From a phage: a DNA stretch of 64,000 nucleotides. Both the position numbers and the translations under genes were made by a program. The notes beneath the pieces were generated by a model. The model was not told where the DNA came from. It searched no databases and saw only the letters and a list, made by a program, of their open reading frames with translations. Positions 1 to 8,090 of the stretch are shown here, in pieces. The stretch is taken from NCBI GenBank assembly GCA_024911895.1, contig GCA_024911895.1_3948.1; one strand, given 5' to 3'. How positions within the stretch are numbered: the stretch's first letter is position 1; each line of letters opens with the position of its first letter.

Positions 1-1050
1 AAAAAAATATCTGTCTAGGATGTATATCTGCTTGGTAGCCCTTAACATCTCCCTTACAAGTGCTTTGCAAAATTTTAAAATATCCTTAACAATCTCTTAA
101 CAGTTCTCACAAGCTCTTAACATCTCTTCAGAGGTCTTAACAGTTTCTTAACAGAACTAACAAGGGTGTAACAGTTTCTTAACAGTTGATACATAGACTT
201 TACAGAGTCTTAACAGATGACTAACAAGAGCTAACAAGTTAATTTTAAAGAGTTATTTTGTTAAGATAATTAACAAGTTCCTAACAAGTGTTTAACCTTT
301 TTAACAAGCTGTTAACATGGTCACTATCTCTTTTCTTATCGTTCCCTTTCCTTTCTTAGTGATTCTTTAAATAGCCCTTTTAAAAGCTCTGTATAGCTCT
401 GTATAGCCCCTTTTAAGTCTCTTCCTAGTAATTACACCCCAACTGTACAGACACCTCCTTATAGGGCTTTTCAGGAGCTTTAAAGGCTATGCCAAAGGCT
501 CTTACAAGGCTTTTACGTGGTTTTAACAGAGATTTAACAAGTTGCTAACAAGTGCCTTAAAAGCATAACTATTTAGGGATTGTTAAGAAATTGTTAAGAA
601 AATGTTAAGGGGGCTAGCATTTACGTAACTTTTAAGCTACTTTTAAGCAACTTTATAGCCCCTATAACATACTTTTAAGACACTAACAATAGGATTCGAT
701 AGATTCCTATCTCATAGCCCTTTTTAGTTATTCACAAGATACTAACGAGATAATAAAGCTTACACCCTTATAAGATTCTTTTAAGGCTCTGGGAAGCTTT
801 ATAAAGGGCTTTTAAGGGTGAGGTAATGCAATCCCTTAAGTTAGGTTGATAAGGCTGTTATAGGGCTTTATAGAGCGTTTAAATGGTTGCCCTTCCCTTT
901 CGGGTTATGGGCTTATATTTAAGTTGATTTGATAAAAGGCTATAGAGTAGACTATAGAGTTATTGCTTTTTAAGGTATGAGATAGATTCTGACTTGTTAG
1001 GGAGTCTTTAAGATTCTGGGAAGGGATTAGATAGACGTAAAAAAGCCCCT
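1..1050. repeat. ~1 kb AT-rich non-coding region packed with short direct and inverted repeats (TAACAG/TAACAAG iterons, CTCTGTATAG x2, CTATAGAGT x2, TTGTTAAGAAA-type x3, several CTTTTAAG)
   Basis: no ORF with a ribosome-binding site; about 16 copies of TAACA(G/A) between ~40 and ~320, many spaced 10-11 bp apart; inverted copies (TTGTTAAG) at ~581-612. Confidence 0.6.
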
Positions 1051-1101
1051 ATGATAAGGAGCTTTTCAGGTATCTGGGGCTATTTAGCCCCGCTGCGTCG
1101 A

Positions 1102-1350
1102 TTAGTTATAATCTTGCTTGTTGTAGTACAGGGAGACGATTTTTTCTCCCCAATAATGATAAGTATAACCATCCTTGAGAACTTCTTGTTTTGTTTCCTC
1201 CCAGAACTCATCCGAAGGATTATAATCTTTGATGGTCTGACTGATAAGACCTTTCACCATTTCAAAGGCGTTATCAGTACCTGCAATGTCAAATTTAACA
1301 TCCAGAGAGGAAAAACCGAACTCGTTAACAGTAGCGCGGATAGTTGCCAT
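1102..1350 (-). CDS. hypothetical early protein (82 aa)
   Basis: ORF whose ATG follows the conserved family-A leader (GGAG 8 nt upstream); no domain recognised. Confidence 0.55.
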   Translation of the reverse strand: MATIRATVNEFGFSSLDVKFDIAGTDNAFEMVKGLISQTIKDYNPSDEFWEETKQEVLKDGYTYHYWGEKIVSLYYNKQDYN

Positions 1351-1426
1351 TTTTGAATCTCCTAGTTTAAGGACTTTACTTAGTAGGGAGGTTATCCCTC
1401 CCGTTGATTAGTAATTTACTTGTTTT
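1351..1426 (-). repeat. family-A early cassette: hairpin GGGAGG..CCCTCCC plus conserved leader ending TAAACTAGGAGATTCAAAA-ATG
   Basis: near-identical ~80-bp unit also at 1912, 3134 and 4184, each directly upstream (minus strand) of a small ORF start codon. Confidence 0.7.
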
Positions 1427-1563
1427 GATATCTGATTGCAAGCAATTTTTTAAGCTTATCTATAAAGAATCTTTTAAGCTAATCCCTTTTAGATAAACCC
1501 CCTCGAACAAAGTTACCAATGTCAAGGGGTATTGTCAACACTTTTTAAAAAGTTTTTTGTAAG

Positions 1564-1911
1564 TTATTGATTAACTGATGAATATTTTTCAGGTTTTACA
1601 TAGCTGATACGCTGACTTTTTAGCAGGTCATCCCAGATTAACGCGGCGATATGGGCATAACCGGATTCACGTAAAAGTTTCATTGTTTTACTTCTCGTTT
1701 CAAAACGGCTTGCATAGTACTCACTATTCAGCGTCGTTTTATTCCCTTCGTTGTCTACATGGATAATCTGCATCACTTGAAAGGGGCTTGTGTCCTCGCC
1801 TTTGTTCCACTGCTCAAAGTATTTTAGGCACTGCATAGGTGACATCTTATCACTTACTTGAGTTGACCATGATGCGCCAGCTTTATCGGTAATTACGGTT
1901 ACATAAGCCAT
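1564..1911 (-). CDS. hypothetical early protein (115 aa)
   Basis: ATG directly after family-A cassette leader; no domain recognised. Confidence 0.55.
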   Translation of the reverse strand: MAYVTVITDKAGASWSTQVSDKMSPMQCLKYFEQWNKGEDTSPFQVMQIIHVDNEGNKTTLNSEYYASRFETRSKTMKLLRESGYAHIAALIWDDLLKSQRISYVKPEKYSSVNQ

Positions 1912-1985
1912 TTTTAGAATCTCCAGTTTAGGACTTTATTTAGTGGGGAAGGTCATTCCCTCCCCGTTGATTGACAATTTACAGA
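1912..1985 (-). repeat. family-A early cassette (hairpin GGGGAAGG..CCCTCCCC plus conserved RBS leader)
   Basis: sequence repeat shared with 1351, 3134, 4184; abuts the ATG of ORF 1564..1911. Confidence 0.7.
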
Positions 1986-2001
1986 TTTTTATCAGGCTTG
2001 T

Positions 2002-2235
2002 CTAGTCTTTTTCAATGATAATTTCATATTGACCGTCAACACTGTCGAAATAGATTCCATCGTCATCTTCTGTCTTAAAGTAGCATTGAATATCATCACT
2101 GGCGGGATAGTCTTGCCTTGCTATCTGGCAAACCTGAATAGCGTTTTCTTTACTCCCTGTAAACTCTTCAAGCCCTTTAAAATCGCATGAATGACCATTA
2201 CAAATTGAGAGGATAAGATAAATGGTTGTAAGCAT
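2002..2235 (-). CDS. hypothetical small Cys-containing protein (77 aa) with hydrophobic N-terminus, possibly secreted
   Basis: N-terminus MLTTIYLILSICNG; 4 Cys; preceded by hairpin 2253..2269 and AAGAGG RBS. Confidence 0.45.
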   Translation of the reverse strand: MLTTIYLILSICNGHSCDFKGLEEFTGSKENAIQVCQIARQDYPASDDIQCYFKTEDDDGIYFDSVDGQYEIIIEKD

Positions 2236-2301
2236 GATTTAAGCCTCTTAAAAGCCCCTGTGAGGGGCTAATCAGTGTTTATAAGGTGATTGCATAGGTT
2301 T

Positions 2302-2844
2302 TTAGAAAAAGCTTCTTAAATCTTTCTCTGTGATGTTTCCCGTTAATGTGTCCATGATGTCACAAAAAACCTGAATACTGTCCGACTGTTGAACACTTTT
2401 AACAAGTAGCTCTAATGTCTCCTCAAGATAGTTTAAATTTGGATTATCCAGTGAAGGAAGACAAAAAGGTGAAAACATTGCATTAAACTCGGTTACGTAA
2501 ACCTTTTTAATCCAATTTAAATCGAAGTATTCTGTAAAACTTGCTACGCCAGACATATTATCACAAGAATAATCATCATTTAGGTCATCCTCTGGGATAT
2601 CAAGTTCTAAGATAACAATATTTTGGGTTTTCATCTGGAAAGCTGCGGTGATAGCGGCATTACCTAGAGCCTGCTGGATACCTTCAGAGATTATTTCTTC
2701 CTCATCGTCGCCATAGATTTTATTTTCTGGATACACGTAAAAATTGCCGTCCATATCCGAACAATTCCATGCGCCTGATGGTTTATCACCGTTATTAATC
2801 AGGTTGAGGAAATTTTCTTGAGTAGTACCGTGAAAGCATTTCAT
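2302..2844 (-). CDS. hypothetical acidic early protein (180 aa)
   Basis: ATG after family-B leader; strongly acidic composition (runs of D/E). Confidence 0.55.
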   Translation of the reverse strand: MKCFHGTTQENFLNLINNGDKPSGAWNCSDMDGNFYVYPENKIYGDDEEEIISEGIQQALGNAAITAAFQMKTQNIVILELDIPEDDLNDDYSCDNMSGVASFTEYFDLNWIKKVYVTEFNAMFSPFCLPSLDNPNLNYLEETLELLVKSVQQSDSIQVFCDIMDTLTGNITEKDLRSFF

Positions 2845-2932
2845 TTTAGAATCTCCAGTTTAGGATTGAGTGGTAAAGCTCTTTATCTGGGGCTTACTTT
2901 ATCGAACTATAAGCCCCTTGTAAAGTACTTTA
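2845..2932 (-). repeat. family-B early cassette: hairpin GGGGCTTA..TAAGCCCC, palindrome AAAGTACTTT, leader ending AAACTGGAGATTCTAAA-ATG
   Basis: 88-bp unit essentially identical to 3642..3726 and 2 mismatches from 5845..5932; abuts the ATG of ORF 2302..2844. Confidence 0.7.
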
Positions 2933-3133
2933 TTAGTTATTTTTTACAACTTTTAAAACTGCAAGGTAACCTAAGCAATAAGAATCACCGAAAAGAGTCC
3001 TACCCATGAAAGAATCCTCTTTTATATCCTTTTCAGTGACGGTTTTTTCTACTCCGTGAAAAAGGACTATATCACCGACTTTGATATCTTTGATATGAGT
3101 AGTTTCAATGTTTAAACCGTTAATAATAGCCAT
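2933..3133 (-). CDS. hypothetical early protein (66 aa)
   Basis: ATG after family-A leader. Confidence 0.5.
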   Translation of the reverse strand: MAIINGLNIETTHIKDIKVGDIVLFHGVEKTVTEKDIKEDSFMGRTLFGDSYCLGYLAVLKVVKNN

Positions 3134-3212
3134 TTTTGAATCTCCTAGTTTAAGGACTTTACTTAGTGGGGAAGGTCATTCCCTCCCCGTTGATTAGTAA
3201 TTTACTTGTTTT
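3134..3212 (-). repeat. family-A early cassette; minus-strand TTGACA-18bp-TAAATT promoter-like element at 3199..3228
   Basis: repeat family shared with 1351, 1912, 4184; abuts the ATG of ORF 2933..3133. Confidence 0.65.
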
Positions 3213-3236
3213 AAAAACCAGTGTCAACAAAATTTT

Positions 3237-3641
3237 TCAGAGTTCTGCATAAATTGCATCGCAGACATCACGAAAATCATGATTTGTTAAATTACGTTGC
3301 AACCATGTTGCGAAAAAGTCAGCGATTGCAAAATTTGCGTCATACTCAACAGATAGCCACACTTTAACAGCAAAACGAAACATTTTTAAATCAAGCTCTT
3401 TATTCATTACCTTAGATTTGCCTAACATGTCAGACATCTCATGTTGTGCACCGTCTAGCGTGATACCTGCTGCAACGTCAGCCAGTGAGTTTTTTACGTT
3501 TTCAACGTCTAAGATAACACTTTGAATCTTCCCAATAATGTTTTGCAGTGTTTCGTCTGGCGCTGATGATGTGATAACATTAATCCGGTTAACGGTCAAA
3601 CGTGCTTTTAAGATTGATAACTCACGGTTATTAATAGCCAT
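3237..3641 (-). CDS. hypothetical early protein (134 aa)
   Basis: ATG after family-B leader. Confidence 0.55.
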   Translation of the reverse strand: MAINNRELSILKARLTVNRINVITSSAPDETLQNIIGKIQSVILDVENVKNSLADVAAGITLDGAQHEMSDMLGKSKVMNKELDLKMFRFAVKVWLSVEYDANFAIADFFATWLQRNLTNHDFRDVCDAIYAEL

Positions 3642-3726
3642 TTTAGAATCTCCAGTTTAGGATTGAGTGGTAAAGCTCTTTATCTGGGGCTTACTTTATC
3701 GAACTATAAGCCCCTTGTAAAGTACT
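3642..3726 (-). repeat. family-B early cassette
   Basis: identical to 2845..2932 over ~88 bp; abuts the ATG of ORF 3237..3641. Confidence 0.7.
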
Positions 3727-3999
3727 TTATGCTAAGTGTAATTTTTTACCTTTTACCATGATGTAACTTGATGCGTTATTACTGCATACATCTTGATAAA
3801 TTCTGCGCAAACGTCCTTCGTAGTATACTTTCCAGCTAGTTGGAATCTTTTTCCCGTATCCTGTAGCAGTTTTTTGCAGTCCTGCAAGTTGCCAATCCAG
3901 AATATGTTGTTCAGCTTGTAAATCCTCGAAGTGCATTACACCGTTCACATAGTGGCGTAGGGTTATGTTTAAAGTGCGACCGTTGTTAGTAGTGTACAT
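3727..3999 (-). CDS. hypothetical early protein (90 aa); start moved from the GTG at 4041 in the ORF track to the ATG at 3999
   Basis: ATG at 3999 is preceded by CTAGGAGCTTTTAAA, the conserved leader/RBS; position 4041 is GTG. Confidence 0.5.
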   Translation of the reverse strand: MYTTNNGRTLNITLRHYVNGVMHFEDLQAEQHILDWQLAGLQKTATGYGKKIPTSWKVYYEGRLRRIYQDVCSNNASSYIMVKGKKLHLA

Positions 4000-4024
4000 T
4001 TTAAAAGCTCCTAGTTTAAGGATT

Positions 4025-4183
4025 TTATTTTGACAATTCACTAATTAAGACATCAAAGATTATATCATTATCTGCTACAGTTGCAACACCAGTGATATAA
4101 TCAATTTCTAAGATAACAACAACTTTCGTACATAAACCATCATCTATATCATTCCAGACAACTTTATCACCTGCACAAAACAT
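4025..4183 (-). CDS. hypothetical small acidic protein (52 aa), below the ORF-track size cutoff
   Basis: own translation: MFCAGDKVVWNDIDDGLCTKVVVILEIDYITGVATVADNDIIFDVLISELSK; ATG directly after family-A cassette leader. Confidence 0.5.
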   Translation of the reverse strand: MFCAGDKVVWNDIDDGLCTKVVVILEIDYITGVATVADNDIIFDVLISELSK

Positions 4184-4264
4184 TTTTGAATCTCCTAGTT
4201 TAAGGACTTTACTTAGTGGGGGAAGCTCATTCCCTCCCCGTTGATTAGTAATTTACTTGTTTTA
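4184..4264 (-). repeat. family-A early cassette
   Basis: repeat family shared with 1351, 1912, 3134; abuts the ATG of small ORF 4025..4183. Confidence 0.65.
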
Positions 4265-4274
4265 AAAACCAAAA

Positions 4275-4607
4275 TCAAGATGAATTTTTTCGTTTGCTCA
4301 ATTCTTGAACTATTACAGCATGATAATCTTTTAAATCACTGATATTTAAAGCATTTATCAGAGAGTTATAATCATCGACAAGCTGAAAATCATCTTTGAA
4401 AATGTCGCTGATTTGATAAGTTTTTGATTGAAATCTGAAGCTCATTTCTAACCGTTTTATTTGTTCATCGCTTAAACGCTCCAGAAAGCTCATTACAAGG
4501 TTATTATTGACCTGCTGCGTGATTGCCTTACTTGCCAAATTATATGCGCTATAAGCCTTGTAAAGTGCTATAATGGCAATGATTGCAGTGATACCCATCA
4601 TTAACAT
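4275..4607 (-). CDS. hypothetical membrane protein (110 aa, N-terminal TM helix)
   Basis: N-terminal hydrophobic segment GITAIIAIIALY; RBS AAGAGGAAG; overlaps the stop of the upstream gene (coupled). Confidence 0.5.
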   Translation of the reverse strand: MLMMGITAIIAIIALYKAYSAYNLASKAITQQVNNNLVMSFLERLSDEQIKRLEMSFRFQSKTYQISDIFKDDFQLVDDYNSLINALNISDLKDYHAVIVQELSKRKNSS

Positions 4608-4897
4608 GGTGCTTCCTCTTTACGTGATACCTTGCCATTTACAGTTATCTCATAAGATTCTAATAAATCGCTTTTAGACTTTACAGGGCTTTTAAAAGTA
4701 TCATCATAGATATTGACTTGTAATACAGGTTTTTTATATTCCCTGCAACTATTCCATAAGCAAATCACTACACGACGGCCTTTGATTTTTCCGTGTAACC
4801 ATTCCATAACATCATGACTATTCCTTGATGTTTCAATGAAATCAATTTTATTAAGTAATTTGCTTAGATTTTCACGGACTTTATTTGATAGTTTCAT
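4601..4897 (-). CDS. hypothetical early protein (98 aa)
   Basis: ATG after family-B-like leader. Confidence 0.5.
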   Translation of the reverse strand: MKLSNKVRENLSKLLNKIDFIETSRNSHDVMEWLHGKIKGRRVVICLWNSCREYKKPVLQVNIYDDTFKSPVKSKSDLLESYEITVNGKVSRKEEAPC

Positions 4898-4984
4898 TTT
4901 TGAATCTACAGTTTAGGACAGTTGATAAATCTCTTTATCTGGGGCTATCTTATCAGCTTGATAACCCCGTGTAAAGAGGTCTAT
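4898..4984 (-). repeat. family-B-like early cassette (variant hairpin GGGGCTATC..GATAACCCC)
   Basis: conserved leader TTTTTGAATCTACAGTTTAGGA and hairpin; abuts the ATG of ORF 4601..4897. Confidence 0.6.
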
Positions 4985-5497
4985 TTAGTCCTTAAAGATA
5001 TTCATCACTGAATCTTTTAATGCTTCCAAGCGTTCTAATACTTCAGATTCTGCGTCTGCGTTGTTCACTTCCTCTTTTAGCCTGTCATCTAAATCATCGC
5101 CGTCACTATAACACCAATCAAAAGCGTAACCAATATAAAAACTGTCTAAAATTGTTTGACCATTTGCATCGACAACTTTCGCGGCAAGGTTGTATTCTGA
5201 AGCCTCTAAATCTCTTTCTAGTTCTTTCTGTAAGCTGATGTAAGCCTCTCTTGATGGATTTTCCCGGCCTTGTTTTGCATAGTCACTTGAAAGCTGTTTA
5301 AGGCTGTAATGTAAAGGGATTGCATATTTAAATTCATTACGCTGACAGTTGGGGTTTTTAATAGTCACGCCGCCATGATGAGTGTCTGTAAACTCCCAAT
5401 TATCAAGATTATGGCTTGCTTCAAAGCAATTAACAGCTTCGTAAATGATGGAAAATTTTTCTTTTACAACTTCAAAGGTAGCTTCTACAGTTTTCAT
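4985..5497 (-). CDS. hypothetical acidic early protein (170 aa)
   Basis: ATG after family-B leader; D/E-rich. Confidence 0.55.
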   Translation of the reverse strand: MKTVEATFEVVKEKFSIIYEAVNCFEASHNLDNWEFTDTHHGGVTIKNPNCQRNEFKYAIPLHYSLKQLSSDYAKQGRENPSREAYISLQKELERDLEASEYNLAAKVVDANGQTILDSFYIGYAFDWCYSDGDDLDDRLKEEVNNADAESEVLERLEALKDSVMNIFKD

Positions 5498-5586
5498 TTT
5501 TGAATCTCCAGTTTAGGATTAATGTGGTAAAGCTCTTTATCTGGGGCTTAAGATATCAACTTTTAAGCCCCCTGTAAAGTACTTTA
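5498..5586 (-). repeat. family-B early cassette (hairpin GGGGCTTAA..TTAAGCCCC)
   Basis: close copy of 6314..6401; abuts the ATG of ORF 4985..5497. Confidence 0.7.
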
Positions 5587-5844
5587 TCAGATTAAATTGC
5601 CAGTTAATGATAAGTGCATTTTATAGCCTTTTTTGGTAAACACGTTCACTTTACCGAGTGATTTTACACCTTTAAAAAGATTGTTTGAACTGCGTTTTAA
5701 GGTTAGTTGTTTATCAGCCTTCACGCCCCATCTTACAGCAGATGGTTTTCCGTTGTCAACAACTTTCCCGCCTAACTTTTTCGCCATGATGCGAGCGTCA
5801 TCGCGAGTTTTTGCAGTAATTACAACGTTTTTGATAATAGCCAT
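5587..5844 (-). CDS. hypothetical basic early protein (85 aa)
   Basis: ATG after family-B leader; K/R-rich. Confidence 0.5.
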   Translation of the reverse strand: MAIIKNVVITAKTRDDARIMAKKLGGKVVDNGKPSAVRWGVKADKQLTLKRSSNNLFKGVKSLGKVNVFTKKGYKMHLSLTGNLI

Positions 5845-5932
5845 TTTAGAATCTCCAATTTAGGATTTAGTGGTAAAGCTCTTTATCTGGGGCTTACTTT
5901 ATCGAACTATAAGCCCCTTGTAAAGTACTTTA
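5845..5932 (-). repeat. family-B early cassette
   Basis: 2 mismatches from 2845..2932; abuts the ATG of ORF 5587..5844. Confidence 0.7.
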
Positions 5933-6313
5933 TCAGTTAATTTTGAAAATTGTCACATAACCATCACTACCGATTATTTGAGATACTCCAGCTTTTTCTA
6001 CATGATAGCCCATATTTTCAAGATGGTAAACAGCATCATCGTAACCATATGCGCCACCCTGATAACGTCTCTTATCGCATCTTATCAGGTTTTTACCACG
6101 TCCTGCAAGTGCATTCAGTACAGCTTTTTCACTTGATAGCGTACCATCTAACATGGTTGCCGTGTAATGGTTGATTTTATTCCCGTTAATATCATACTTA
6201 AAATTGAATGCGTGAACAACAATCAATTTGCCGTTAAATTTTTCATCAAGTGACTTCTCCAGTGCGTTGCGGAAGTTGTCTTTGTTGATGAATTTCGGTG
6301 CACGATAAGCCAT
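5933..6313 (-). CDS. hypothetical early protein (126 aa)
   Basis: ATG after family-A-type leader (TAAACTAGGAGATTCAAAA). Confidence 0.55.
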   Translation of the reverse strand: MAYRAPKFINKDNFRNALEKSLDEKFNGKLIVVHAFNFKYDINGNKINHYTATMLDGTLSSEKAVLNALAGRGKNLIRCDKRRYQGGAYGYDDAVYHLENMGYHVEKAGVSQIIGSDGYVTIFKIN

Positions 6314-6401
6314 TTTTGAATCTCCTAGTTTAAGGGTTAATTTAGTAAAGCTCTTTATCTGGGGCTTAAGATATCAACTTTTAAACCCCCTGTAAAGTAC
6401 T
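6314..6401 (-). repeat. family-B early cassette
   Basis: close copy of 5498..5586; abuts the ATG of ORF 5933..6313. Confidence 0.7.
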
Positions 6402-6623
6402 TTATTTGTCGTAGTAGTAAATCGCTGTCTGCCTTGTAAATTTCTTAGTGTTTCTTGTAAGGTAGCAATTAGAATTAATAGCCGTTTCTACATAGTTGCA
6501 ATAGTCGGCTTCTGATATTCTGGACCATACGCCACAGATTTGCATGTAAAAACGTTTTGCCTTTGTGTGAATGTTAGTTGTAACCATCAATTCGCGACTG
6601 TATATCATTATTTCGCGCTCCAT
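6402..6623 (-). CDS. hypothetical early protein (73 aa)
   Basis: ORF overlapping the end of 6608..6796 (translational coupling). Confidence 0.4.
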   Translation of the reverse strand: MEREIMIYSRELMVTTNIHTKAKRFYMQICGVWSRISEADYCNYVETAINSNCYLTRNTKKFTRQTAIYYYDK

Positions 6624-6796
6624 TTCTCAAAGAGTTCAGCAGGGAAACGTTCGCTATAACCTTTTAAGGAAAAAGTGTTATCTTCGTGGATAGCTTCCAC
6701 CTGATAAACCTTATAAGAGCGTATAGTTAGCATTTTGTAAGAGTATTCGTGCTTGATGTTAACCTCATCACCAACTTTAATCTTTCTTGATGCCAT
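6608..6796 (-). CDS. hypothetical early protein (62 aa), first gene downstream of the 6847..6875 promoter
   Basis: ATG after leader AAACTGGAGATTCAAAAA. Confidence 0.5.
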   Translation of the reverse strand: MASRKIKVGDEVNIKHEYSYKMLTIRSYKVYQVEAIHEDNTFSLKGYSERFPAELFEKWSAK

Positions 6797-6846
6797 TTTT
6801 TGAATCTCCAGTTTAGGAAGTGGGCTTGATTGCCCGTCTGATGCAA

Positions 6847-6875
6847 ATATTAGATAACTATACTCAAAGAGTCAA
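6847..6875 (-). promoter_or_regulatory. sigma70-like promoter (minus strand TTGACT-17bp-TAATAT) heading the leftward early cluster
   Basis: -35 at 6870..6875 and -10 at 6847..6852 read on the minus strand; 17-bp spacer; ~50 nt upstream of the ATG of ORF 6608..6796. Confidence 0.5.
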
Positions 6876-7050
6876 TAGGAATTTTAAAAATATTTTTTGC
6901 AAAAATTGTAATGAAACGGGTGCGCGCGACTACCACAAAACAGAACTACAATCAAGAATTATTTTTCAATCCGCTACAAATTTTTCTGTTGACTTTTATT
7001 TCCAGATGTGGTAGCCTTGTGAGAAATGGCGACATCCCCACCTGCACCCA

Positions 7051-7240
7051 CCTACCTGCACAATTCTAAAATGATTTTTCTTGCCAGACCTGATTTTTCT
7101 CTGCACGTTTTGAAAATGAAAAAGCTCTTTGGAGATTACCTGCACAGTTTGAAAATGAATTTTCTCTTTGGAGTTCAAAATTATCTCTACAGATTTCTCT
7201 ACAGAACTCTACCTGCACAATCCTGAAATGAAAAAGCCCT
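7051..7240. repeat. four direct repeats, core CTGCACa(a/g)tt(c/t)TGAAAATGA, at ~7051, 7099, 7136 and 7209 in a 500-bp intergenic region
   Basis: read directly; variable spacing 37-73 bp; no coding support (the plus ORF 7026..7226 is judged spurious). Confidence 0.6.
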
Positions 7241-7304
7241 CCTTACCTGAAAAATTTACCAGATAAGAAAGGCTTAGTCTATTGTGAATATACTACGAAG
7301 TTTC

Positions 7305-8090
7305 TTAGTTCTTTGCGTCTAAGAAGGTAAGCTCTGGTGAAGAGAAAACCGTCTCGATATCCTCATCAGTTCTTGCATAGATGTAAGCATCTGCATCACT
7401 GCCAAATGTTACTGCAATCCTGTGATTGCTCTTCGACAGGTGGGTAACTAGAGCGTTACTTAGAGACATCTTTTCAACCGGAGGGTTACTTTGATGTATC
7501 TTACCTTTTCTACGTCTGAAGAGGGTAACTGCATTATCTGTGAAAACTGCTACACCTGCAAAATATTCTGGTTCACAATAGTTCTTCCAACCTGAGCGTA
7601 ACTTATGGTACATTTCACCTTCATAGACATATAGGTAAACATCTACACTCTTCATCACCTGATTGATGATAACTGTGACGGCTTGAGGGTCCAGTCCACC
7701 GATACCTGCACCAATCATAGGTAACCCAACTTTCTTCAACTGATTCACTTCACAGTATCTGTTAAGCTGTTTCAAAGATGACTCTAAAGCACTGTATCGG
7801 GCATCTTTACCAGTCTTAAGCTGAGTGTAAAGGTTAGCTATACGGCCTTGTTTTAAACGTGCTACAGAGAAATTGCCTAGTAAATTCTCACAGGGCTTGT
7901 GGCCTATTCCACCTGCATACAGATAAACTTCTGTATCAGTCTCATATGCTTTTGGGTAAAGTTTAGAAATCTTGTCAGCGATACCTGCACCCATTAAGTT
8001 CATACAGTTGCAACCGTGACCGATGACGTCAAACTTACCTTTATCAAATGCTGCAAAGATATCGCCATTGATGATTTTTACAATACCCAT
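7305..8090 (-). CDS. macro-domain protein (ADP-ribose binding/processing; TARG1/OARD1-like N-terminal domain) with ~110-aa C-terminal extension
   Basis: motifs GHGCNCMNLMGAGIA and LPMIGAGIGGLD match, from memory, the TARG1-type macro signatures (CRMGAGIA ... PRIGCGLDRL). Confidence 0.55.
   Translation of the reverse strand: MGIVKIINGDIFAAFDKGKFDVIGHGCNCMNLMGAGIADKISKLYPKAYETDTEVYLYAGGIGHKPCENLLGNFSVARLKQGRIANLYTQLKTGKDARYSALESSLKQLNRYCEVNQLKKVGLPMIGAGIGGLDPQAVTVIINQVMKSVDVYLYVYEGEMYHKLRSGWKNYCEPEYFAGVAVFTDNAVTLFRRRKGKIHQSNPPVEKMSLSNALVTHLSKSNHRIAVTFGSDADAYIYARTDEDIETVFSSPELTFLDAKN

What the first reader, a model, noticed from the sequence alone, without database searches (positions are those of the whole stretch)
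1351..6875. Array of two families of ~85-bp hairpin-leader cassettes, each heading a small early ORF (PeSL-like modular architecture)
About 15 consecutive small minus-strand ORFs occupy 1.1-6.8 kb. Ten are preceded by one of two near-identical cassette families. Family A (1351, 1912, 3134, 4184) has hairpin GGGGAAGG..CCCTCCCC. Family B (2845, 3642, 4898, 5498, 5845, 6314) has hairpin GGGGCTTA..TAAGCCCC plus the perfect palindrome AAAGTACTTT. Both end in the same translation-initiation leader CCTAAACT(A)GGAGATTC(A/T)AAA-ATG. Copies at 2845 and 3642 are identical over 88 bp. Minus-strand -35/-10-like hexamers sit next to the hairpins. This resembles the promoter-stem-loop cassettes proposed to shuffle small novel ORFs in T4-type hyperplastic regions. 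The small proteins, several strongly acidic or membrane-anchored, are natural candidates for host-takeover or anti-defence functions.
Basis: partly seen in the sequence, partly recalled or inferred. Interest (0 to 1): 0.7.

Follow-up and report, generated by a model that had tools for sequence, protein, structure and literature searches.

The report
Promoter-hairpin gene cassettes in Felix O1-type phage
A Felix O1-type phage carries about 15 small genes of unknown function, most of them behind a repeated roughly 90-base promoter-hairpin-ribosome-site cassette. Related phages gain, lose and swap these genes exactly at the cassettes, as described for "PeSL" cassettes in T4-type phages.

Summary
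The window is a Felixounavirus, reverse-complemented relative to Felix O1 numbering. Region 1.1-6.9 kb corresponds to Felix O1 genes 14-23. It holds 15 minus-strand ORFs, all without Pfam hits.

Six ORFs follow a type-B cassette and four follow a type-A cassette, at the reported coordinates. One more follows a third promoter-hairpin variant (6797-6875) and one follows the leader alone. The motifs occur nowhere else in the 64 kb.

- **Type A:** a TTGACA-like box, 17 nt, TAAATT, TCAAC, then a GGGGAGGG/CCTTCCCC hairpin that would start about 3 nt into the transcript.
- **Type B:** an invariant TTTACA, 17 nt, and a TAnnnT box, all inside a roughly 60-nt imperfect palindrome. It folds as a three-tier hairpin supported by covariation.

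I compared 17 Ounavirinae genomes. Gene order is collinear, but single ORF-plus-cassette units are present or absent. Of 196 pairwise indels, 144 have 19-105 bp of cassette sequence shared by both junctions. Chimeric cassettes and replacement by unrelated ORFs also occur.

The PeSL-like reading is supported by comparative sequence evidence only. Promoter activity and hairpin function are inferred. The hairpins lack a U-tract, so termination is doubtful, and RNase III-type processing is a live rival. The repeats were previously listed only as "direct repeats". I rate this a new member of a known kind, of moderate interest.

The parts
7234..7275 (-). Intrinsic terminator after the macro-domain gene (Felix O1 t13); upstream boundary of the array
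   Evidence: One search finds a 17-pair stem followed by a T-run. The sequence is the same as t13 in Table 2 of PMC3185647.
6797..6875 (-). First cassette, a type-A-like variant: TTGACT (6875-6870), 17 nt, TAATAT (6852-6847), TCAGAC, hairpin GGGC..GCCC (6835-6822), leader CCTAAACTGGAGATTC. It heads W01 and W02.
   Evidence: The same architecture is conserved upstream of W02 in 14 other genomes.
6608..6796 (-). W01, 62 aa, an accessory ORF absent from the other 16 genomes compared
   Evidence: tblastn finds it in 55 phage records. It matches phrog_15633, function unknown.
6402..6608 (-). W02, 68 aa (Felix O1 ORF15 homologue); its start overlaps the W01 stop
6314..6401 (-). Type-B cassette (stem GGGGUUUAA/UUAAGCCCC with a U.G pair), heading W03
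   Evidence: dG -21.9, z -2.6.
5933..6313 (-). W03, 126 aa, variable (absent in 5 of 17 genomes)
5845..5932 (-). Type-B cassette heading W04
5587..5844 (-). W04, 85 aa, variable
5498..5586 (-). Type-B cassette heading W05; an imperfect palindrome with 33-nt arms
   Evidence: (repeat I1), (dG -27.8, z -4.6).
4985..5497 (-). W05, 170 aa (Felix O1 ORF16 homologue, maximal at 5 min by RT-PCR in Felix O1)
4898..4984 (-). Type-B cassette, divergent copy: stem GGGGUUAUC/GAUAGCCCC, lower stem CUCUUUA/UAAAGAG, Shine-Dalgarno GTAG in place of GGAG. It heads W06-W07.
   Evidence: dG -24.7, z -4.0.
4601..4897 (-). W06, 98 aa
4275..4607 (-). W07, 110 aa; overlaps W06 by 7 nt and has no cassette of its own
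4184..4274 (-). Type-A cassette: TTGATT, 17 nt, TAAATT, TCAAC, hairpin (4219-4239), leader. It heads W08.
4025..4183 (-). W08, 52 aa, variable (4 of 17 genomes), no PHROG hit
4000..4024 (-). Leader-only junction (CCTTAAACTAGGAGCTTT) heading W09a. It is the scar of W08 gain or loss by leader-to-leader exchange.
   Evidence: The W08 indel has 23-36 bp of junction overlap in 32 genome pairs.
3727..3999 (-). W09a, 90 aa (Felix O1 ORF19 homologue)
3642..3726 (-). Type-B cassette heading W10; identical over 92 bp to the copy at 2845
3237..3641 (-). W10, 134 aa (Felix O1 ORF20 homologue, maximal at 5 min)
3134..3236 (-). Type-A cassette: TTGACA (3227-3222), 17 nt, TAAATT (3204-3199), TCAAC, hairpin 3168-3188, leader. 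It heads W09b.
2933..3133 (-). W09b, 66 aa; replaced by the unrelated x05 in SUSP1, Sf13 and EcSzw_1
2845..2932 (-). Type-B cassette heading W11
   Evidence: (dG -24.3, z -3.6).
2302..2844 (-). W11, 180 aa, acidic
2236..2301 (-). Intergenic region without a cassette: hairpin AGCCCCTCACAGGGGCTTTT and a different ribosome-binding site, heading W12
   Evidence: conserved as far as Moogle.
2002..2235 (-). W12, 77 aa
1912..2001 (-). Type-A cassette: TAGACA, 17 nt, TAAATT, TCAAC, hairpin 1945-1965, leader. It heads W13.
1564..1911 (-). W13, 115 aa (Felix O1 ORF21 homologue, maximal at 5 min)
1351..1563 (-). 213-nt spacer whose last roughly 100 nt (1351-1450) form a type-A cassette: TTGCAA, 17 nt, TAAATT, hairpin GGGAGGG..CCTCCC at 1386-1402. 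It heads W14. The spacer is the one that precedes gene x01 in other genomes, so x01 was lost by exchange between A cassettes.
   Evidence: (69-73 bp junction overlap).
1102..1350 (-). W14, 82 aa (Felix O1 ORF23 homologue; 95% DNA identity to Felix O1 but 70% to ZX4221)
1039..1091 (-). End of the array: a B-like remnant hairpin GGGGCTAAATAGCCCCAGATA (1091-1071), then an intrinsic terminator (Felix O1 t23 equivalent, about 1066-1039)
   Evidence: Sequence. Table 2 of PMC3185647 lists t23 downstream of ORF23 at the equivalent position.

Best explanation
Region 1.1-6.9 kb is the accessory-gene ("hyperplastic") region of a Felix O1-type myovirus. Most of its ORFs of unknown function are self-contained expression units. 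Each is headed by a composite cassette that fills the whole 85-103-nt intergenic space.

**Cassette layout.** In order: the upstream stop codon, an AT-rich stretch, a host sigma-70-type promoter, a GC-clamped stem-loop, and a shared 5'UTR with an invariant GGAG Shine-Dalgarno sequence 8 nt before the ATG.

**Type A.** The hairpin starts about 3 nt after the predicted transcription start. It would therefore be a 5'-terminal stem-loop of the mRNA, which from general knowledge is a stabiliser against 5'-end-dependent decay.

**Type B.** The promoter sits inside a roughly 60-nt imperfect palindrome. The complete 20-bp interrupted hairpin can therefore form only in transcripts that read through from the unit upstream. 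There it would insulate, attenuate or process the RNA. Transcripts started at the embedded promoter begin just 3' of the apical stem.

**Recombination role.** The cassettes are direct repeats of 20-105 bp in one orientation, so they also act as portable homology. Recombination between two cassettes deletes the ORFs between them. In co-infection it can insert or replace them, always leaving one intact, often chimeric, cassette.

**Shown here:** the repeats, the conservation pattern of the boxes, hairpin conservation with covariation, and cassette-bounded indels, replacements and chimeras.

**Inferred:** promoter activity, the position of the transcription start, what the hairpins do in RNA, and that recombination (rather than selection alone) places the junctions.
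For: **Repeats are real and local.**
- Leader and hairpin motifs give 12, 4 and 4 hits against chance expectations of 0.56, 0 and 0. All lie within 1.3-6.9 kb.
- GC-clamped hairpins followed by a Shine-Dalgarno sequence and ATG are confined to this region of the 64 kb.

**Promoter signature, type B.** In 49 distinct B cassettes from 17 genomes:
- TTTACA is invariant and the spacer is 17 nt.
- In the -10 box only T-12, A-11 and T-7 are at least 90% conserved, while the three middle bases vary freely.

**Promoter signature, type A.** In 90 A-type cassettes the consensus is TTGACA-like, 17 nt, TAAATT, then TCAAC immediately before the hairpin.

**Structure.**
- B cassettes fold at -22 to -28 kcal/mol, with z-scores of -2.6 to -4.6.
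- On the alignment, 94.8% of cells pair, against 32-56% for structures slid by 1-3 columns.
- Five pairs show changes on both sides. One is GC to UA at pair 20:70, which links the two TAAAGnnCTTTA sites.
- Erwinia phage copies carry GGTG..CACC stems.
- A-type stems vary (GGGGAGGG/CCTTCCCC, GGGAGG/CCTCCC, GGGC/GCCC, GGGGUAAG../CCCC) but always pair. 31 of 45 variants are more stable on the mRNA-sense strand.

**Modular exchange.**
- Gene order is collinear, with unit presence or absence across 17 genomes.
- 144 of 196 pairwise indels have at least 19 bp of junction overlap and 77 have at least 50 bp.
- The adjacent cassette-free 3.4 kb shows about 2-3 distinct indels, with junctions ranging from a 17-bp overlap to a 45-bp gap.
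- Chimeric cassettes exist. Felix O1 W13 carries the promoter half that elsewhere heads W09b. W03 in AYO145A and wV8 carries the first promoter plus an A hairpin.
- Unrelated ORFs occupy the same slot.
- The closest relative switches gene by gene.

**Expression.** In Felix O1, orthologues 16, 20, 21 and 22 are maximally expressed 5 min after infection (PMC3185647).

**Distribution.** The B cassette occurs in 288 phage records (1434 places) and the A cassette in 247 records (1281 places). All are Felix O1-type or their Erwinia, Hafnia and Citrobacter relatives.
Against: - There are no transcript-mapping data for any Felix O1-type phage in the searchable library. Transcription starts, promoter strength and hairpin function are all inferred.
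- None of the cassette hairpins is followed by a U-tract, and the terminator scan does not call them. The "terminator" half of the PeSL model is therefore not supported by sequence.
- Strand asymmetry of the whole B hairpin is not significant (28 of 49, p = 0.09). A DNA-level structure is not excluded.
- Felix O1 orthologues 14, 17, 19 and 23 peak at 25 min, not 5 min.
- Junctions inside intergenic cassettes could partly reflect selection: only deletions that keep expression signals intact survive.
- Some events are not cassette-mediated. W01 has 2-8 bp of overlap, W06 loss in SP2 has none, and the W14 end is replaced.
- The genomes are related, so counts of cassettes and pairwise events are not independent events.
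Confidence: 0.7

Rival explanations
1. The long B hairpin is an RNase III-type processing site, like the sites between phage T7 early genes, rather than a terminator. Read-through polycistronic RNA would be cut in the 3x3 internal loop. The upstream message would keep a protective 3' hairpin. The downstream message would get the same AGAUAAAGAG... 5' end as transcripts started at the embedded promoter. This rivals only the function assigned to the hairpin and is compatible with the recombination role.
For: - The helix is a 20-bp interrupted one (6+5 bp lower stem, 3x3 internal loop, 9 bp upper stem), conserved with covariation.
- No U-tract follows it.
- Its 5' arm lies upstream of the predicted transcription start, so it exists only in read-through RNA.
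- The block CCCCAGATAAAGA at the 3' side of the internal loop is nearly invariant across 49 distinct copies from four phage groups.
- The resemblance to the two-stem, internal-loop layout of T7 R1.1-type sites comes from my own knowledge and was not tested.
Against: - There are no cleavage data.
- The internal loop is symmetric, whereas the classic T7 sites are asymmetric (from memory).
- Sense versus antisense stability is not significantly different.
- No Rfam family matches.
Confidence: 0.25
2. The cassettes are simply conserved expression signals (promoter, RNA hairpin, ribosome-binding site) kept alike by selection and common descent. They play no causal part in gene gain and loss. Indels end in them only because deletions that damage a gene or its signals are eliminated.
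For: - Every gene boundary in the array is a cassette, so any whole-gene indel must end in or next to one.
- Gene order is strictly collinear, with no transposition.
- Some indels use only 2-8 bp of homology or none.
- The cassette-free neighbouring region also has whole-gene indels.
Against: - Junctions are in exact register and always leave one cassette of normal length (85-103 nt).
- Chimeric cassettes join the 5' half of one copy to the 3' half of another.
- Events pair like with like: B with B (about 85-105 bp), A with A (57-84 bp), leader with leader (20-36 bp).
- Distinct variable units number 14 or more in about 6 kb, against about 2-3 in the adjacent 3.4 kb.
- Copies within one genome are up to 92 bp identical. 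That is more than function would require and suggests ongoing homogenisation by recombination.
Confidence: 0.2
3. The paired 12-bp palindromes TAAAGnnCTTTA in type B, one over the -35 box and one at +2 to +16, are operators for a dimeric phage or host regulator that switches the array off or on. On this reading the GC hairpin is incidental.
For: - The window has ten exact palindromes, all in B cassettes, in pairs 47 bp apart (chance expectation 0.15).
- They bracket the promoter core.
- Orthologues differ in timing, some peaking at 5 min and others at 25 min.
Against: - Covariation runs between the two sites, not within a site. When the left outer half changes from G to U, the right outer half changes from C to A. 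The inner halves of both sites stay fixed, which destroys the palindromy of each site but keeps the hairpin (pair 20:70).
- The copies heading W06 have a non-palindromic left site yet still pair with the right arm.
- Type-A cassettes lack the sites.
- No DNA-binding protein was identified among the ORFs.
Confidence: 0.08
4. The cassettes are miniature mobile elements (MITE- or REP-like palindromic repeats) that have spread through the intergenic regions on their own.
For: They are roughly 60-90-nt imperfect palindromes, present in many copies and nearly identical within a genome.
Against: - Across 17 genomes the cassette copies I catalogued have the same orientation and the same register relative to the upstream stop and the downstream ATG.
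- I saw no target-site duplications, no copies inside genes, and no copies elsewhere in the 64-kb window.
- No transposase or homing nuclease is encoded in the array.
- The internal positions carry a sigma-70 box conservation pattern.
Confidence: 0.03

Closest known systems
PeSL (promoter-early stem-loop) cassettes of T4-type phages phi1/RB49, PST/T4 and nt-1/KVP40 (Arbiol et al. 2010, PMC2839356; Comeau et al. 2014, PMC4122927)
   Same: - The composite intergenic motif has the same parts: upstream stop codon in an AT-rich stretch, sigma-70-like -35/-10 boxes, a GGGG..CCCC stem-loop overlapping the -10 (type B here) or lying downstream of it (type A here), then a Shine-Dalgarno sequence and start codon.
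- Both cluster in a region of small ORFs of unknown function.
- In both, related genomes differ by insertion, deletion or replacement of ORFs bounded by the motifs.
   Different: - This is a different phage lineage (Ounavirinae), with no blastn-detectable similarity to any T4-type record.
- Here the cassettes also share a 25-nt translation leader, and the whole intergenic space is the cassette.
- Type B is a three-tier 20-bp hairpin enclosing the promoter.
- Promoter and terminator activity and mini-circle formation were shown experimentally for phi1 and RB49. None is shown here.
- These hairpins lack a U-tract.
"Direct repeats" reported in the Felix O1 genome paper (PMC3185647) and annotated as DR_1 to DR_9 in the wV8 GenBank record EU877232
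   Same: These are the same sequences. The 57-bp Felix O1 repeat CTTTACATGGGGCTTAAAAGTCTGTAAAGTAAGCCCCAGATAAAGAGCTTTACCACT is a type-B core. The 39-bp repeat TTGACACTGGTTTTTAGATAGATTAAATTACACATCAAC is a type-A promoter.
   Different: - There they are listed only as repeats.
- The Felix O1 paper's promoter list omits them and states that it is unknown how transcription gets past the terminators.
- AYO145A annotates two of them as promoters.
- I found no published link to modular exchange.
RNase III processing sites between the early genes of phage T7 (from my own knowledge)
   Same: Conserved two-stem hairpins with an internal loop lie between consecutive early genes and have no U-tract.
   Different: - T7 sites contain no promoter and are not known as recombination substrates.
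- Cleavage is untested here.
Host-takeover module of Bacillus phage SPO1 and the early regions near the genome ends of T5 and T7 (from my own knowledge)
   Same: A dense array of small early genes of unknown function, many with their own strong host-type promoter and strong ribosome-binding site, lies next to a probable genome end (window 1-1000).
   Different: - Those arrays are not built from near-identical repeated cassettes.
- No function is known for any protein here.
Integron gene cassettes with attC sites (from my own knowledge)
   Same: Single ORFs are bounded by imperfect-palindrome repeats, and the arrays differ by gain and loss of cassettes.
   Different: - Integrons need a dedicated integrase and a single common promoter, and attC folds as single-stranded DNA.
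- Here each unit has its own promoter, no recombinase gene is nearby, and general homologous recombination suffices as an explanation.

Membership tests
PeSL (T4-type promoter-early stem-loop cassette) | Sigma-70-like -35 and -10 hexamers with 16-18 bp spacing | tested here: met
   - Type B: TTTACA is invariant, the spacer is 17 nt, and the -10 box is TAnnnT at 90% or more.
- Type A: TTGACA-like, 17 nt, TAAATT.
- The scan picks up 8 of the 10 copies.
PeSL (T4-type promoter-early stem-loop cassette) | Stable stem-loop, usually GGGG..CCCC, placed between the -35 and -10, overlapping the -10, or downstream of the -10 | tested here: met
   - Type B: the 5' arm lies in the spacer and the 3' arm overlaps the end of the -10.
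- Type A: the hairpin starts 10-11 nt after the -10.
PeSL (T4-type promoter-early stem-loop cassette) | Begins at the upstream gene's stop codon in an AT-rich stretch and ends with the Shine-Dalgarno sequence and start codon of the next gene | tested here: met
   Intergenic lengths are 85-103 nt and consist wholly of cassette sequence. The stop codons are embedded in TAAAGTAC or TGATAAAG.
PeSL (T4-type promoter-early stem-loop cassette) | Concentrated in a variable region rich in small ORFs of unknown function | tested here: met
   - All copies lie within 1.3-6.9 kb of the 64-kb window.
- None of the 15 ORFs has a significant Pfam hit.
- Variable units are far denser here than in the flanking 3.4 kb.
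PeSL (T4-type promoter-early stem-loop cassette) | Insertions, deletions and replacements between close relatives are bounded by the motifs | tested here: met
   - 144 of 196 pairwise indels have 19-105 bp of junction overlap inside cassettes.
- Chimeric cassettes and slot replacements occur.
PeSL (T4-type promoter-early stem-loop cassette) | Promoter active, and stem-loop an effective terminator, in reporter assays | not testable with these tools
   This needs experiments. The sequence argues against a canonical terminator: there is no U-tract.
PeSL (T4-type promoter-early stem-loop cassette) | Formation of excised mini-circles by exchange between neighbouring motifs | not testable with these tools
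   This needs inverse PCR or long reads from lysates.
PeSL (T4-type promoter-early stem-loop cassette) | Sequence relatedness to the T4-type motifs, or occurrence in T4-type phages | tested here: not met
   blastn with both cassettes finds only Felix O1-type phages and their Erwinia, Hafnia and Citrobacter relatives. The resemblance is one of architecture, not descent.
Intrinsic (rho-independent) terminator | GC-rich hairpin followed directly by a run of U | tested here: not met
   - The terminator scan calls only 7275-7234 on the minus strand.
- B hairpins are followed by AGAUAAAGAG and A hairpins by ACUAAGUAAAG.
RNase III processing site (T7 early type) | About 20 bp of helix interrupted by an internal loop, conserved between genes of a polycistronic transcript | tested here: inconclusive
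   The shape is met. Polycistronic read-through and cleavage are unknown.
Miniature mobile element (MITE/REP-like) | Copies in both orientations and at varied sites, with target-site duplications | tested here: not met
   Across 17 genomes all copies have one orientation and a fixed register relative to the stop and start codons.

The most novel reading that the evidence does not exclude
The type-B cassette may be a dual-entry expression module. RNase III-type cleavage of read-through RNA in the internal loop, and fresh initiation at the promoter embedded in the same palindrome, would produce the same 5' end (AGAUAAAGAG...). Every gene would then get an identical leader whatever its neighbours are. 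Together with the strictly coupled two-allele leader and its invariant GGAG, the array would work as an integron-like, recombinase-independent gene-cassette platform in a lytic phage. It might also be the common target of one phage-encoded post-transcriptional shut-off factor.
Probability: 0.15. Interest if true: 0.75.

Novelty: new member of a known kind. Interest (0 to 1): 0.5.

Why it matters
- **Extends the PeSL idea.** If confirmed, this carries the concept of regulatory cassettes that double as recombination sites from T4-type phages to an unrelated, widely used group. Felix O1-type phages serve as Salmonella and E. coli typing, biocontrol and therapy phages. That would suggest a general way for large lytic phages to trial new small genes.
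- **Explains a known puzzle.** It would account for how transcription proceeds through Felix O1 genes 14-23. The genome paper left this open.
- **Corrects annotation.** Felix O1 ORF19 and similar calls probably start inside a hairpin loop.
- **Practical uses.**
  - It marks the part of these therapeutic phages most likely to differ between isolates.
  - It offers natural, compact promoter-leader modules and natural insertion sites for engineering.
  - It defines a set of about 30 accessory gene families to screen for host-takeover or anti-defence activity.

Tried and rejected
- **Intrinsic terminator reading of the hairpins.** Rejected on sequence: no U-tract, and the scan does not call them.
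- **Two independent palindromic operators in type B.** Considered after finding the paired TAAAGnnCTTTA sites. Made unlikely by covariation between the sites rather than within them.
- **Strand asymmetry as proof of an RNA-level structure.**
  - A-type hairpins are clearly asymmetric (31 of 45).
  - The whole B hairpin is not (p = 0.09).
  - I therefore claim it only for type A, and the variants are not independent.
- **Rfam.** No family matched. There were only sub-threshold hits to microRNA precursors at one B cassette, which reflect its hairpin shape.
- **Protein function.** Pfam and PHROGs gave nothing usable for any of the 15 ORFs.
- **Literature.** Searches linking Felix O1-type phages to PeSLs or to transcript mapping found nothing. 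The wV8 paper does not mention the repeats.
- **Clustering artefact.** My first protein clustering merged W09a and W09b. Some ORF calls had started at the ATG in the type-A hairpin loop and translated the cassette. I corrected this by inspection.
- **Failed search.** A pattern search for the TGTGCAG repeats upstream of the array used the wrong spacing and was uninformative.
- **Metagenome and IMG/VR scans.** Not run. The annotated phage collection already gave about 290 genomes.

Full report
**What the window is.** Megablast of 1000-7300 finds 259 phage records, almost all Felix O1-type myoviruses (Felixounavirus). The best is Escherichia phage ZX4221, at 95% identity over 92% of the query. 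Only 4 records cover at least 80% of the query in one place, so the region is highly mosaic. The window is reverse-complemented relative to Felix O1 numbering. The array lies between the macro-domain "phosphatase" gene (7305-8090, Felix O1 ORF13) with its terminator t13 (7275-7234) and the terminator after ORF23 (about 1066-1039). It therefore corresponds to Felix O1 genes 14-23.

**Checking the observation.** Fifteen minus-strand ORFs of 52-180 aa fill 1102-6796.

- The intergenic spaces of 85-103 nt consist entirely of the reported cassettes.
- Family A heads the ATGs at 1350, 1911, 3133 and 4183.
- Family B heads those at 2844, 3641, 4897, 5497, 5844 and 6313.
- The two leader variants give 7 and 5 hits, against 0.52 and 0.04 expected by chance. 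The exact B hairpin gives 4 hits and the A core gives 4, each against 0 expected. All hits lie between 1355 and 6817 on the minus strand.
- The copies at 2845 and 3642 are identical over 92 bp.

- A third variant at 6797-6875 (TTGACT, 17 nt, TAATAT, TCAGAC, GGGC..GCCC, same leader) heads W01 and W02.
- A leader-only junction lies at 4000-4024.
- A second TAAAGnnCTTTA palindrome sits in each B cassette. The window has ten such palindromes, all in B cassettes, in pairs 47 bp apart, against 0.15 expected by chance.

One gene, W12, is headed by something different: a hairpin followed by TTTT (2236-2301).

**Anatomy of type A.** I anchored 90 A-type cassettes from 17 genomes on the hairpin start.

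- The consensus is T(89/90) T G A/C C/A A at -39 to -34, a 17-nt spacer, TAAATT at -16 to -11, then five variable bases and TCAAC directly before the G-run.
- A start about 7 nt after the -10 box would put +1 on an A of TCAAC. The hairpin would then begin 2-3 nt into the RNA. This is inferred, not measured.
- I found forty-five distinct hairpin sequences, among them GGGGAGGG/CCUUCCCC with a G.U pair, GGGAGG/CCUCCC, GGGGGGG/CCUCCCC, GGGC/GCCC and GGGGUAAG../CCCC. All fold.
- 31 of the 45 are more stable on the mRNA-sense strand than on its complement (means -10.3 versus -8.8 kcal/mol; Wilcoxon p = 1e-4, variants not independent).

This fits a structure selected in the transcript. From general knowledge, a 5'-terminal stem-loop with few unpaired 5' bases protects E. 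coli mRNAs from 5'-end-dependent decay.

**Anatomy of type B.** I aligned 49 distinct cassettes from Felixounavirus, Suspvirus and Mooglevirus genomes.

- TTTACA is invariant and the spacer is 17 nt.
- In the hexamer at the -10 position only T, A and the final T are at least 90% conserved. The middle three bases vary freely (TAAAGT, TATCTT, TAAGAT, TAGTAT, TACCAT and others). This is the signature of a sigma-70 -10 element. It is notable because the hexamer sits in a hairpin loop where everything else drifts.
- The block CCCCAGATAAAGA after it is nearly invariant.

As RNA, the cassette folds into three tiers: 6 bp, a 1x1 mismatch, 5 bp, a 3x3 internal loop, a 9-bp GC-clamped apical stem and an 11-nt loop. 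Free energy is -22 to -28 kcal/mol, with z-scores of -2.6 to -4.6.

On the alignment, 94.8% of cells pair, against 32-56% for slid controls. Five pairs change on both sides.

- The most informative is pair 20:70, GC in 34 sequences and UA in 9. It links the outer half of the left palindrome to the outer half of the right one, while the inner halves stay fixed.
- That supports one long hairpin rather than two independent operator palindromes.
- Erwinia phage Coenus has B-type cassettes with GGTG..CACC stems, a further compensatory change.

The 5' arm lies upstream of the predicted start, so the complete hairpin can exist only in RNA reading through from the previous unit, or in DNA. Whole-cassette strand asymmetry is not significant.

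**What the hairpins are not.** None is followed by a U-run. The terminator scan calls only the true terminators at the ends of the array. No Rfam family matches.

**The leader.** All 196 leaders in the 17 genomes carry GGAG. They come in exactly two forms, CTAAACTGGAG (131 copies, of which 21 read CTAAATTGGAG) and CTTAAACTAGGAG (65 copies), and never mixed. Both forms occur on A and B cassettes. The coupled T and A insertions lengthen a small stem (UCC/GGA to UCCU/AGGA) over the Shine-Dalgarno sequence. Close linkage alone could also explain the coupling.

**The comparative test.** I fetched the homologous region from 16 genomes: 11 Felixounavirus, 3 Suspvirus and 2 Mooglevirus. I called ORFs and clustered the proteins.

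- Gene order is strictly collinear. The genomes differ by presence or absence of single units (9 to 20 ORFs per genome).
- I chained pairwise blastn alignments among the 12 Felixounavirus sequences and found 196 indels of at least 100 bp, in 28 classes of gene content.
- In 144 of them the same stretch of the shorter genome aligns to both flanks in the longer genome over at least 19 bp. In 77 the overlap is at least 50 bp.
- Overlap sizes sort by cassette type: about 85-105 bp for B with B, 57-84 bp for A with A, and 20-36 bp for leader with leader (for example W08).
- The product always keeps one cassette of normal length.

Chimeric cassettes are visible.

- Felix O1 lacks W09b, W11 and W12. 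Its W13 is headed by the TTGACACTGGTTTTT promoter half that elsewhere heads W09b.
- AYO145A and wV8 lack W02. Their W03 is headed by the first promoter fused to an A hairpin.
- W13 is headed by an A cassette in most genomes but by a B cassette in wV8, SUSP1 and Sf13.

Unrelated ORFs share a slot: W09b versus x05, and W05 versus x13. The window itself lacks x01 (Felix O1 ORF22) through an A-to-A junction. It has W01, which 55 other records carry.

The closest relative changes gene by gene. W07 is 100% identical to ZX4221. W13 is 98% identical to AYO145A. W14 is 95% identical to Felix O1 but only 70% to ZX4221.

As a control, the cassette-free 3.4 kb upstream shows only about 2-3 distinct indels, with junctions ranging from a 17-bp overlap to a 45-bp gap.

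Exceptions exist. W01 has a 2-8 bp junction, W06 loss in SP2 has none, and the W14 end is replaced.

**Caveats.** The genomes are related, so pairwise counts are not independent events. Because every gene boundary is a cassette, selection for intact units contributes to the pattern.

**Distribution and prior knowledge.**

- The B cassette matches 288 phage records at 1434 places. These include Erwinia and Hafnia phages related to Felix O1.
- The A cassette matches 247 records at 1281 places. No T4-type phage is hit by either.
- The Felix O1 genome paper lists a 57-bp and a 39-bp "direct repeat" that are the B core and the A promoter. It does not call them promoters and states that it is unknown how transcription passes the terminators (PMC3185647).
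- The wV8 record annotates DR_1 to DR_9 here, but the wV8 paper is silent on them. AYO145A annotates two of the cassettes as promoters.
- I found no paper linking Felix O1-type phages to PeSLs, and no transcript mapping for them.
- Felix O1 RT-PCR puts ORFs 13, 16, 20, 21 and 22 at 5 min and ORFs 14, 17, 19 and 23 at 25 min.

**Comparison with PeSLs.** The published definition reads as follows (PMC2839356, section read). The motif has the upstream stop codon in an AT-rich stretch, sigma-70-like boxes and a stem-loop often built on polyG/polyC. The stem-loop sits in one of five positions, most often between the boxes or over the -10. A Shine-Dalgarno sequence and start codon follow. The motifs are enriched among ORFs of unknown function in hyperplastic regions and lie at indel and replacement junctions.

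Every sequence-level feature is met here. The experimental features (promoter and terminator activity, mini-circles) cannot be tested with these tools. There is no sequence relatedness. I therefore file this as a new member of the same kind, arisen in a different phage lineage. It has three particular traits: a shared translation leader, a 5'-terminal hairpin in type A, and a promoter enclosed in a long interrupted hairpin in type B.

**Proteins.** None of the 15 has a significant Pfam hit. Fourteen match PHROG families of unknown function and W08 matches none. The host-takeover or anti-defence idea is untested.

**Verdict.** The mechanism is partly shown (architecture, conservation, modular exchange) and partly inferred (promoter activity, hairpin function, recombination as the cause). 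Interest is moderate.

Noticed in passing
window 1-1000: About 1 kb of non-coding DNA is packed with short direct repeats built on TTAACA(A/G)/CTTAAC and AGCCCCTTTTAA-like motifs. Several related GenBank records begin or end here, and some annotate a repeat_region. It is probably the genome terminus or a packaging or replication region next to the array.
   Followed up: partly
window 6880-7250 (- strand): Several copies of a roughly 30-nt repeat (TCATTTT..TGTGCAGGTA) lie between terminator t13 and the first promoter of the array. They are conserved in Moogle and SUSP1. They could be iterons or binding sites for a regulator.
   Followed up: partly
all leaders, e.g. window 1355-1372 and 1917-1932; 196 leaders in 17 genomes: The leader exists in only two forms, CTAAACTGGAG (131) and CTTAAACTAGGAG (65), never mixed, and both occur on A and B cassettes. 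The coupled T and A insertions extend a mini-stem across the Shine-Dalgarno sequence.
   Followed up: partly
type-A hairpin loops, e.g. window 3175-3180; L003 (Felix O1) 4484-4801: The loop AATGACC contains an ATG in frame with the downstream gene. Felix O1 ORF19 (105 aa) is annotated from it and is probably mis-started. Most copies close this frame with the TAA in ACTAA(A/G)TAAAG.
   Followed up: partly
window 2236-2301: W12 is the one gene in the array with its own non-cassette upstream region. It has a hairpin AGCCCCTCACAGGGGC followed by TTTT and a different ribosome-binding site, conserved as far as Mooglevirus. It may be an internal terminator splitting the array.
   Followed up: no
window 1071-1091: A B-like remnant (GGGGCTAAATAGCCCCAGATA) without promoter boxes sits between the last ORF and the final terminator.
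   Followed up: no
L017 (Erwinia phage Coenus) 2100-7250: Erwinia relatives have the same array design but with GGTG..CACC or GGGGTTA..TAACCCC stems and a different leader (CCCTTATAAAGGAA). The design outlives the sequence.
   Followed up: partly
window 7305-8090: The gene just upstream of the array encodes a 261-aa macro-domain protein (Pfam PF01661, E = 1e-7), annotated in relatives as phosphatase or O-acetyl-ADP-ribose deacetylase. In Felix O1 its orthologue is expressed at 5 min. It is a plausible counter to ADP-ribosylation-based defence, but I did not examine this.
   Followed up: no
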